From the NCBI GenBank assembly GCA_000165345.1, contig CM000429.1, positions 1 to 64,000 on the forward strand: 64,000 nucleotides of DNA, written 5' to 3'. Positions 27,914-27,933 of the stretch are shown piece after piece. Made by a program: the position numbers and the translations under genes. The notes beneath the pieces were generated by a model that did not search any database, was not told the DNA's origin, and saw nothing but the letters and a program-made list of their open reading frames with translations. The first letter of the stretch is position 1; every line of letters begins with the position of its first letter.

Positions 27914-27933
27914 TGGCGCCAGCATGTAATTTT
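27914..27933. promoter_or_regulatory. Composite GGCGCC + CATGTAATTT element (TGGCGCCAGCATGTAATTT) ~50 bp upstream of secreted gene B
   Basis: It matches a second site at 54522-54540 at 18 of 19 positions. Confidence 0.4.

What the first reader, a model, noticed from the sequence alone, without database searches (positions are those of the whole stretch)
27914..27933. 19-nt composite element TGGCGCCA(G/A)CATGTAATTT present upstream of two unrelated genes (27914 and 54522)
Both copies combine a GGCGCC half (E2F-like) with CATGTAATTT, at 18/19 identity. They sit ~50 bp upstream of secreted member B and ~190 bp upstream of ARL2. In ~80% AT DNA a chance 18/19 match of a GC-containing 19-mer within 64 kb is very unlikely. 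This suggests a shared cis-regulatory module, for example E2F plus a second factor.
Basis: seen in the sequence. Interest (0 to 1): 0.5.

Follow-up and report, generated by a model that had tools for sequence, protein, structure and literature searches.

The report
E2F site plus adjacent promoter box
Two Cryptosporidium parvum promoters share a 19-base string made of the parasite's well-known E2F binding site followed two bases later by a second conserved promoter word (YATGYAATT), so it is a real but fairly ordinary pairing of regulatory motifs rather than a new kind of element.

Summary
In detail: TGGCGCCA(G/A)CATGTAATTT occurs at 27914-27932 and 54522-54540, with no similarity outside the 19-mer. 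The window is Cryptosporidium parvum chromosome 1. The genes are cgd1_120 (a fast-evolving secreted protein) and cgd1_200 (ARL2).

The left half is the published, dominant C. parvum E2F/DP promoter motif: GGCGCC occurs 9 times in the window and 8 copies are intergenic. Given those sites, a flank match this good arises by chance in about 1-3% of simulations, not "never".

The right half is also a real motif. CATGTAATT is a perfect instance of YATGYAATT. That word is the constrained core of a species-conserved array at 48.69-49.06 kb and recurs in other promoters. It resembles catalogued motifs (ACATGY, YTTACAT, TGCATGCA).

Both copies are conserved in other species. At ARL2, TGGCGCCAACATGTAAT is the longest exact run shared by C. 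parvum and C. felis across seven promoters. A third E2F-like core followed by CATGTAGAT (56037-56056) has a 4-5 nt spacer.

No RNA structure was found. Box-bearing genes fall in different expression clusters.

Verdict: two separable promoter words placed side by side. Cooperative binding at fixed spacing remains possible but untested. Interest is modest.

The parts
27914..27921 (.). Site A, E2F/DP-type palindrome TGGCGCCA. It lies 69 nt upstream of the ATG of cgd1_120, a secreted protein with a C-terminal cysteine cluster.
   Evidence: It matches the published Motif 3 DTTGSCGCCH. GGCGCC is conserved in C. hominis, C. tyzzeri and chipmunk genotype I.
27923..27932 (+). Site A, YATGYAATT-type box CATGTAATTT, 2 nt after GGCGCC. 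Its right flank (ATGTAATTTTTGAAAAT) resembles array unit 48757 (ATGTAATTTTGAAAAT).
   Evidence: CATGT is kept in chipmunk genotype I, while the AA of TAATTT is lost there.
27952..27958 (+). Second ATGTAAT word in the cgd1_120 proximal promoter or 5' UTR.
   Evidence: ATGTAAT is also present at the aligned place in chipmunk genotype I.
54522..54529 (.). Site B, E2F/DP-type palindrome TGGCGCCA. It lies 24 nt after the NARF-like stop codon and 206 nt before the ARL2 (cgd1_200) ATG.
   Evidence: The GCGCCA core is conserved in C. meleagridis, chipmunk genotype I, C. ubiquitum, C. canis and C. felis. An E2F-type core is also present in C. bovis and C. andersoni.
54531..54540 (+). Site B, YATGYAATT-type box CATGTAATTT, 2 nt after GGCGCC.
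   Evidence: TGTAA is invariant in six species. TGGCGCCAACATGTAAT is the longest exact parvum-felis shared run in seven intergenic regions.
54522..54591 (+). Conserved ARL2 promoter block. It contains the E2F site, the box, ACCGGT (54543-54548), an inverted CCAAT box ATTGGCT (54552-54558), ATGTAAA (54569-54575, the reverse complement of Motif 9 YTTACAT) and the G-box ATGTGGGGTAC (54581-54591, Motif 2 DTGTGGGG).
   Evidence: The block is nearly invariant from C. parvum to C. canis while the rest of the spacer diverges. No RNA structure or RNA family was found.
56037..56056 (+). Third case: E2F-like GGCGCT, spacer AAAT, then CATGTAGATT. It lies in the bidirectional promoter between Nop16 and an HVA22-like gene, 130 nt before the ATG at 56167.
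   Evidence: It is conserved in C. meleagridis, chipmunk genotype I, C. ubiquitum and C. canis, with a spacer of 4-5 nt.
50828..50838 (-). Isolated GCATGTAATTT box, antisense to both neighbouring genes and about 285 nt from the nearest E2F core (50545).
   Evidence: GAGCATGTA is conserved to C. canis.
42807..42822 (+). ATGTAATTTTGGACCG, 18 nt downstream of the E2F core at 42783-42788 in the cgd1_160 promoter. It shares ATGTAATTT(T)GGACCG with site B.
   Evidence: It is present at the orthologous place in C. meleagridis.
62640..62647 (+). GCATGTAA box about 50 nt from the E2F palindrome at 62589, antisense to both neighbouring genes.
   Evidence: CATGT is identical in all 4 other species.
48686..49060 (+). 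Array of about 8 units with a period of about 43/87 nt. The core is ACCGG-(0-2 nt)-YATGYAATT. This array defines the box, and CATGTAATT and CATGCAATT interchange within it.
   Evidence: It is conserved at the orthologous place in C. meleagridis, chipmunk genotype I, C. ubiquitum and C. canis. The unit consensus peaks on CGG and on YATG.AATT.

Best explanation
The 19-mer is two separable promoter words that sit at the same 2-nt spacing in two unrelated C. parvum promoters.

Word 1, TGGCGCCA, is the parasite's well-described E2F/DP site. This assignment rests on homology and on published over-representation and ATAC-seq data. Binding has not been shown biochemically.

Word 2, (R)CATGTAATT, is an instance of a YATGYAATT box. 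It is a C-to-T variant of the GCATGCAATT / TGCATGCA (AP2_1-like) word. A second sequence-specific DNA-binding protein probably reads it, most plausibly an ApiAP2 of the TGCATGCA class. This step is an inference.

Both words are under purifying selection and act at the DNA level as part of compact core promoters. At ARL2 they are the 5' end of a roughly 70-nt module that also carries an inverted CCAAT box and a G-box. The 18/19 identity follows from two short motifs lying next to each other. It does not come from duplication, and the 19-mer is not an indivisible element.
For: Organism and genes.

E2F half. GGCGCC occurs 9 times against about 0.5 expected, and 8 of 9 copies are intergenic. It matches the published Motif 3 and the ATAC-seq peak motif.

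Box half.
- YATGYAATT is the highest-information core of a species-conserved array.
- It occurs 14 times against 8.4 expected, and 12 of 14 copies are intergenic.
- CATGTAATT occurs 4 times, all intergenic.
- CATGT boxes are identical in at least 3 of 4 other species in 4 of 5 cases, against 12% for background 5-mers.

Separability. The box occurs without an adjacent E2F core (50829 minus strand, the array) and at other distances (18 nt at 42807; 4-5 nt at 56037).

Constraint on the pair.
- The 2-nt spacing has no indels in any species at either locus.
- The 17-mer TGGCGCCAACATGTAAT is the longest exact parvum-felis run across about 2 kb of promoters that are 42% identical.
- Three of the 11 intergenic CATGTA copies start 2-4 nt 3' of an E2F-like core (all-hexamer corrected P about 0.015).

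DNA-level action. Two conserved boxes (50828-50838 and 62640-62647) are antisense to every neighbouring gene. No structure or RNA family was found.

No duplication. There is no similarity outside the 19-mer.
Against: - Only 64 kb plus orthologous loci could be examined. The association statistics rest on 2-3 sites and are partly post hoc. The clean independent test, one extra hit among the other 19 oriented cores, gives only P about 0.05.
- For site A the only informative outgroup is chipmunk genotype I. It keeps CATGT but not TAATTT. C. ubiquitum loses CA of CATG at site B. So the constrained core differs a little between loci.
- Neither site matches the strict TGCATGCA palindrome (6/8 and 5/8).
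- The published protein-binding-microarray work states that the related 'Unknown set 2' motifs are not AP2 binding motifs. The identity of the second factor is therefore open.
- No transcription-start or binding data were available.
Confidence: 0.6

Rival explanations
1. The pair is a true composite element. E2F/DP and a partner protein bind cooperatively and require the fixed 2-nt spacing, so TGGCGCCA-N-CATGTAAT is recognised as one unit. It would be comparable to mammalian CDE/CHR or E2F/NF-Y modules and would mark a specific gene subset.
For: - The same 2-nt spacing is seen at both loci, with no indels in any species, while the spacer letters vary (AG, GG, AA).
- The contiguous 17-mer is the best-conserved parvum-felis promoter string found.
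- In all three E2F-core-plus-CATGTA cases the box points toward the downstream gene.
- The all-hexamer corrected enrichment has P about 0.015.
Against: - There are only two instances at 2-nt spacing in 64 kb.
- The third case has a 4-5 nt spacer that varies between species.
- The box is conserved at places far from any E2F core.
- There are no extra instances in about 43 kb of C. bovis and C. andersoni, and the orthologous ARL2 promoters there lack the box.
- Box-bearing genes fall in different expression clusters.
Confidence: 0.2
2. The similarity is a coincidence. The two E2F sites happen to have similar AT-rich flanks, and each flank is conserved for its own unrelated reason, such as general core-promoter or UTR constraint. 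There is no shared second motif.
For: - Given the E2F sites, a flank match this good occurs in 1-3% of simulations of a single window. A first-stage reader scanning many windows will meet such cases.
- CATGTA is not over-represented in intergenic DNA overall (11 observed against 10.9 expected).
- Site A's whole proximal 100 nt is fairly conserved.
Against: - The same 9-mer is the constrained core of a conserved array.
- It recurs as conserved boxes in other promoters.
- Flanks of other E2F sites (50545, 62589) decay by C. ubiquitum or C. canis, whereas this one persists to C. felis.
Confidence: 0.13
3. The element works at the RNA level. CAT|GTAAT could be a 5' splice donor of a 5'-UTR intron. 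AUG-UAA could be a start-stop mini-uORF. UGUAAU could be a PUF-type site in the NARF 3' UTR. Or the conserved block could be a small RNA.
For: - The ARL2 coding intron starts CAT|GTAAGT (translation).
- ATGTAA and ATGTAG read as start followed by stop.
- The first AATAAA after the NARF stop codon lies downstream of the block.
- There is a weak C/D snoRNA hit on the minus strand (E = 4).
Against: - There is no significant Rfam match.
- The consensus fold is weak with a covariation penalty, and the z-score is -0.42.
- C. ubiquitum loses the ATG and chipmunk genotype I loses the TAA/GTAA.
- The related conserved boxes at 50828 and 62640 are antisense to all neighbouring genes.
- The snoRNA-like C box is not conserved in C. 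canis.
Confidence: 0.05

Closest known systems
C. parvum E2F-like upstream motif (Motif 3 DTTGSCGCCH / 5'-TGGCGCCA-3'; Oberstaller et al. 2013, PMC3734150; the ATAC-seq peak motif of bioRxiv 10.1101/2025.01.17.633476)
   Same: The left 8 nt of both copies are this motif exactly. Like it, they are intergenic, promoter-proximal, strongly over-represented and conserved.
   Different: The published motif ends at the A/T flank. No fixed 3' extension or partner word is described in the papers read here.
AP2_1-like motif family (TGCATGCA; Motif 1 BGCATGCAH and Motif 7 ACATGY), bound by ApiAP2 domains such as cgd2_3490
   Same: Site B contains ACATGT, which equals Motif 7. Site A contains GCATGT. In the array, CATGTAATT and CATGCAATT occupy the same position, so the box looks like a one-base variant of GCATGCAAT.
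   Different: The match to the TGCATGCA palindrome is only 5-6 of 8. The conserved AATT tail is not part of the published motif. Binding by an ApiAP2 is untested.
'Unknown set 2' motifs (Motif 9 YTTACAT, reverse complement ATGTAAR; Motif 24 KATYTRCAH) of Oberstaller et al. 2013
   Same: ATGTAA is shared. ATGTAAA at 54569-54575 matches Motif 9 exactly. CATGTAGAT at 56047 nearly matches the reverse complement of Motif 24. No factor is known for these motifs, and they are reported not to be AP2 binding motifs.
   Different: Both 19-mer copies read ATGTAAT, with T where the motif has R. The published family consensus (YYTRCA) is much shorter and looser.
Animal cell-cycle composite promoters (CDE/CHR: an E2F-like site, a 4-nt spacer, then TTTGAA; E2F plus NF-Y/CCAAT modules). 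This comparison rests on my own knowledge.
   Same: An E2F-type core is followed at a short, fixed distance by a second conserved word. The ARL2 block also carries a conserved inverted CCAAT box.
   Different: The second word is different: CATGTAAT rather than TTYGAA. Published work reports no pRB or most DREAM-complex orthologues in C. parvum. Cooperativity has not been shown.

Membership tests
C. parvum E2F/DP binding site | Sequence fits [A/T][C/G]GCGC[G/C][A/T] / DTTGSCGCCH | tested here: met
   Both copies read TGGCGCCA. Site A, TTTGGCGCCA, fits Motif 3 at 10 of 10 positions. Site B, TCTGGCGCCA, fits at 9 of 10.
C. parvum E2F/DP binding site | Over-represented and located in upstream intergenic DNA | tested here: met
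   GGCGCC occurs 9 times against about 0.5 expected, and 8 of 9 copies are intergenic. Sites A and B lie 69 and 206 nt before the downstream ATG.
C. parvum E2F/DP binding site | Conserved at orthologous promoters | tested here: met
   An E2F-type core is present upstream of ARL2 in all eight species examined.
C. parvum E2F/DP binding site | Bound by E2F/DP protein | not testable with these tools
   The 2025 review states that most Cryptosporidium regulatory components lack experimental validation.
AP2_1-like (TGCATGCA) ApiAP2 site | Contains the TGCATGCA / GCATGCA palindromic core or TGCAT | tested here: not met
   Site A reads AGCATGTA (6 of 8) and site B reads AACATGTA (5 of 8). Neither contains TGCAT or ATGCA.
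AP2_1-like (TGCATGCA) ApiAP2 site | Fits the looser family member Motif 7, ACATGY | tested here: inconclusive
   Site B reads ACATGT and fits. Site A reads GCATGT and does not. In the array, CATGTAATT and CATGCAATT interchange between copies and between species, which supports a relationship.
'Unknown set 2' (Motif 9 YTTACAT) | Reverse complement ATGTAAR is present | tested here: not met
   Both 19-mer copies read ATGTAAT, with T rather than R at the last position. An exact ATGTAAA lies 38 nt downstream in the site B block.
Fixed-spacing composite element (E2F plus partner) | Constant spacing between the two halves across instances | tested here: inconclusive
   The spacing is 2 nt at sites A and B in all species. 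It is 4-5 nt at 56037 and 18 nt at 42807. The box also occurs without an E2F core.
Fixed-spacing composite element (E2F plus partner) | Genome-wide enrichment of the juxtaposition, and co-expression of target genes | not testable with these tools
   The whole genome is not available here. cgd1_120 is absent from the held expression table. Four box-bearing genes are in clusters 6, 30, 41 and 58.
Structured non-coding RNA / snoRNA | Match to an RNA family, or a conserved structure with covariation | tested here: not met
   Rfam gives no hit at gathering score, and the best hit is E = 4. The alifold covariation term is positive on both strands. The fold z-score is -0.42.
Repeat- or duplication-derived sequence | Similarity extends beyond the motif into the flanks | tested here: not met
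   The pairwise alignment of the site +/-100 nt shows no similarity outside the 19-mer.

The most novel reading that the evidence does not exclude
TGGCGCCA-N-CATGTAAT is a genuine bipartite recognition element. On this reading, the Cryptosporidium E2F/DP heterodimer recruits, or is recruited by, a YATGYAATT-binding partner (an ApiAP2 or bZIP-like protein) at a strict 2-bp spacing. That would define a sub-regulon within the very large E2F target set. The conserved 87-nt-period array of CCGG-YATGYAATT units at 48.7-49.06 kb would be a high-occupancy landing pad for the same partner. It would also be the first evidence for a protein partner of E2F in an apicomplexan that lacks pRB.
Probability: 0.2. 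Interest if true: 0.55.

Novelty: new member of a known kind. Interest (0 to 1): 0.3.

Why it matters
E2F motifs lie upstream of most C. parvum genes, so E2F alone cannot explain stage-specific expression. The 2025 review states that it is unknown whether any protein works with E2F in this parasite.

A conserved second word placed directly against an E2F site gives a concrete, testable candidate for combinatorial control. This holds especially for the ARL2 17-mer, which has remained unchanged from C. parvum to C. felis. It also gives two compact natural promoters (cgd1_120, cgd1_200) in which to test it.

If the pairing proves to be only loose motif co-occurrence, the finding adds little beyond the published motif catalogues.

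Tried and rejected
1. Duplicated or repeat-derived segment: rejected, because there is no flank similarity.

2. Small RNA gene or structured element in the conserved block at site B: rejected. Rfam gathering and permissive scans found only a sub-threshold C/D snoRNA hit on the minus strand (E = 4), and its C-box is not conserved in C. canis. Alifold on both strands gave a covariation penalty. The single-sequence z-score is -0.42.

3. Coding on the minus strand: the 59- and 61-aa ORFs over site B overlap the NARF gene, and the conservation is not three-periodic. I did not pursue this.

4. RNA-level readings (5' splice donor, start-stop uORF, PUF site): considered because ATGTAA and ATGTAG read as start followed by stop, and the ARL2 intron starts CAT|GTAAGT. 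They are disfavoured because C. ubiquitum loses the ATG, chipmunk genotype I loses the TAA/GTAA, and two related conserved boxes are antisense to all neighbouring genes.

5. Co-expression test: ARL2 is in cluster 58, but cgd1_120 is not in the stored, truncated supplement. Other box-bearing genes are in clusters 6, 30 and 41. The test is inconclusive for the pair.

6. More instances in distant species (C. bovis, C. andersoni): none found.

7. Genome-wide search: not possible. The public-collection scans cover bacteria, archaea, viruses and JGI metagenomes, where a 14-17-base pattern would mostly return chance hits.

8. The bacterial promoter/terminator scanner was not used, because it does not apply to a eukaryote.

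Full report
**Observation.** The pattern TGGCGCCARCATGTAATTT occurs exactly twice in the window, at 27914-27932 and 54522-54540, both on the + strand. No further matches appear with up to three mismatches, and no dinucleotide shuffle of the window gave two matches. The two neighbourhoods share nothing beyond the 19-mer. Site A ends 50 nt before the ATG at 27983. Site B ends 187 nt before the ATG at 54728 and starts 24 nt after the stop codon of the upstream gene.

**Where this is.** The proteins encoded next to both sites are found, identical, on an 881-kb chromosome of assembly GCA_031892065.1. [quoted passage not shown] It is a fast-evolving, highly polymorphic gene. The gene downstream of site B is ARL2 (cgd1_200), and the gene upstream is a NARF/Fe-hydrogenase-like protein. 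The window is 28% G+C overall and 22% between genes.

**The left half is the known E2F site.**
- GGCGCC occurs nine times, against about 0.5 expected from composition, and eight copies lie between long ORFs.
- TGGCGCCA is the consensus that Oberstaller et al. 2013 gave for the most over-represented upstream motif of C. parvum (Motif 3, DTTGSCGCCH). They found it upstream of 163 of 200 expression clusters.
- It is also the dominant motif in sporozoite ATAC-seq peaks.
- The assignment to E2F/DP rests on homology. The 2025 review stresses that binding and partners are untested.

**How surprising is the shared flank?** Once the E2F sites are taken as given, the question becomes whether two of 18 oriented flanks agree at 10/11 or 11/12 positions. 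Drawing flanks from this window's own intergenic DNA, that happens in 1.2-2.7% of trials.

**Footprinting at site A.** I fetched orthologous loci for site A from C. hominis, C. tyzzeri and chipmunk genotype I. The only informative outgroup is chipmunk genotype I, whose protein is 44% identical. It keeps TTTGGCGCCAACATGT but reads T-rich where C. parvum has AATTT.

**Footprinting at site B.** I fetched orthologous loci from C. meleagridis, chipmunk genotype I, C. ubiquitum, C. canis, C. felis, C. bovis and C. andersoni.
- The 19-mer is the 5' end of a roughly 70-nt block that is nearly invariant from C. parvum to C. canis. The block reads GCGCCA..TGTAA..T.GACCRGTAATATTGGCT...TGACA...GTGGGGTAC. 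It also contains an inverted CCAAT box, an exact Motif 9 word (ATGTAAA) and an exact G-box (Motif 2, ATGTGGGG).
- C. felis has lost the middle of the block but keeps TTGGCGCCAACATGTAAT and GTGGGGTAC.
- C. bovis and C. andersoni keep only an E2F-type core.
- Across seven aligned intergenic regions (about 2 kb, 42% identity), the longest exact string shared by C. parvum and C. felis is the 17-mer TGGCGCCAACATGTAAT at site B. The next-longest runs are CACACA-type, G-box and GCATGC words.
- As a baseline, the flanks of other E2F sites (50545, 62589) diverge by C. ubiquitum or C. canis. The E2F site at 60883 abuts a conserved G-box.

**The right half is a motif in its own right.**
- A third case lies at 56037-56056: GGCGCT-AAAT-CATGTAGATT. 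It is conserved to C. canis with a 4-5 nt spacer.
- CATGTA is not enriched in intergenic DNA overall (11 observed, 10.9 expected). However, three of the eleven copies start 2-4 nt 3' of an E2F-like core. An all-hexamer randomisation gives P of about 0.015. The clean test on the 19 oriented cores that did not generate the hypothesis gives P of about 0.05.
- An exact GCATGTAATTT lies on the minus strand at 50828-50838, and GCATGTAA lies at 62640. Both are conserved and both are antisense to all neighbouring genes.
- ATGTAATTTTGGACCG at 42807, which is 18 nt from an E2F core, shares ATGTAATTT(T)GGACCG with site B.
- Most telling is an array of about eight units at 48686-49060, with a period of about 43/87 nt and the core ACCGG-(0-2 nt)-YATGYAATT.
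  - It is present at the orthologous place in four other species.
  - Its unit consensus has the highest information on CGG and on YATG.AATT.
  - Within it, CATGTAATT and CATGCAATT interchange.
  - Its units extend the match to site A (ATGTAATTTTGAAAAT).
- YATGYAATT occurs 14 times in the window against 8.4 expected, and 12 copies are intergenic.
- CATGT boxes in alignable promoters are identical in at least three of four other species in four of five cases, against 12% for background 5-mers. My binomial calculation from those numbers gives P of about 1e-3, or about 6e-3 without site B.

**Relation to catalogued motifs.** Oberstaller et al. list Motif 7 ACATGY (AP2_1-like) and Motif 9 YTTACAT (reverse complement ATGTAAR, 'Unknown set 2', no known factor). 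The follow-up study reports that Unknown set 2 is not an AP2 binding motif and that TGCAT-type words are bound by several ApiAP2 domains. The box overlaps both motifs but fits neither strictly. None of the papers I read describes an E2F-plus-box composite.

**Rivals tested.**
- A structured RNA or snoRNA in the site B block is not supported.
- RNA-level readings (splice donor, start-stop uORF, PUF site) are disfavoured by the substitutions seen in C. ubiquitum and chipmunk genotype I, and by the antisense orientation of related conserved boxes.
- Duplication is excluded.
- Co-expression could not be tested for the pair. Four box-bearing genes fall in clusters 6, 30, 41 and 58.

**Conclusion.** The finding is real. 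Its left half is already known. Its right half is a recurrent, conserved promoter box related to catalogued motifs. The evidence best fits two separable promoter words placed side by side (confidence 0.6). A strict cooperative composite remains a live but minority possibility (0.2). Settling this needs a genome-wide offset histogram, transcription-start data and binding or reporter assays, none of which could be run here.

Noticed in passing
window 48686-49060: There is an array of about 8 units with a period of about 43/87 nt and the core ACCGG-(0-2 nt)-YATGYAATT. The units alternate between TGTGGATTACCGG-CATGCAATTA and GCACCGGTG-CATGCAATTGGAAAATCAAAAATA types. It sits in a 3.9-kb gene-free, very AT-rich spacer upstream of cgd1_170. 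It is conserved at the orthologous place, with the same period, in C. meleagridis, chipmunk genotype I, C. ubiquitum and C. canis. Tandem Repeats Finder misses it, and there is no Rfam match. Its function is unknown, and it may be a homotypic binding-site cluster.
   Followed up: partly
window 1-743 (minus strand): This is the 5' part of a eukaryotic small-subunit rRNA gene (Rfam RF01960, 642 bits), cut off by the window edge. So an rDNA unit lies about 6 kb from the start of this chromosome record.
   Followed up: no
window 62579-62604: This is a perfect 26-nt palindrome, TTCAAATTTTGGCGCCAAAATTTGAA. An E2F core is flanked on both sides, after 4 nt, by TTTGAA. The layout recalls the animal CDE/CHR arrangement. 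The TTTGAA arms are kept in C. meleagridis but not in chipmunk genotype I or C. canis.
   Followed up: partly
window 60883-60895: An E2F core directly abuts a G-box on the opposite strand (GGCGCCACCCCAC). It is conserved from C. parvum to C. canis, and a related GCCGCCTCCCCAC is present in C. bovis. This is another tight two-motif juxtaposition.
   Followed up: partly
window 54543-54548 and 48750, 48792, 48923: The palindrome ACCGGT occurs in intergenic DNA only four times: three times in the array and once in the conserved ARL2 promoter block. ATTACCGGT is shared between the reverse complement of site B and array unit 48790.
   Followed up: partly
window 54728 vs 54761: The public annotation of this assembly starts ARL2 at the second in-frame ATG (54761; 174 aa). 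However, ATGACTCTATTGCAAG at 54728 is conserved at the nucleotide level in all species aligned. The longer N-terminus ([17 protein letters not shown]...) is therefore probably the true start.
   Followed up: no
window 27683-29278 and L003-L005: The cgd1_120 coding sequence is no better conserved than its proximal promoter. For C. parvum against C. hominis, CDS identity is 0.89 and the -1..-100 region is 0.91. For C. parvum against chipmunk genotype I the figures are 0.65 and 0.60. This agrees with published reports of near-neutral or positive selection on this secreted protein.
   Followed up: partly
window 50750-50761 and 52700-52709: The other long exact strings shared by C. parvum and C. 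felis promoters are ACACACAGTATA (CACACA-type AP2 word, upstream of cgd1_180) and GGCATGCATT (AP2_1 word, upstream of the NARF-like gene). They are likely functional sites.
   Followed up: no
window 24901-24909 (minus) and 24942-24947: The promoter of the paralogue cgd1_110 carries CATGCAATT (minus strand) 33 nt from an E2F-like GGCGCT, which lies 79 nt before its ATG. This is the same two words as in cgd1_120, in a different arrangement.
   Followed up: no
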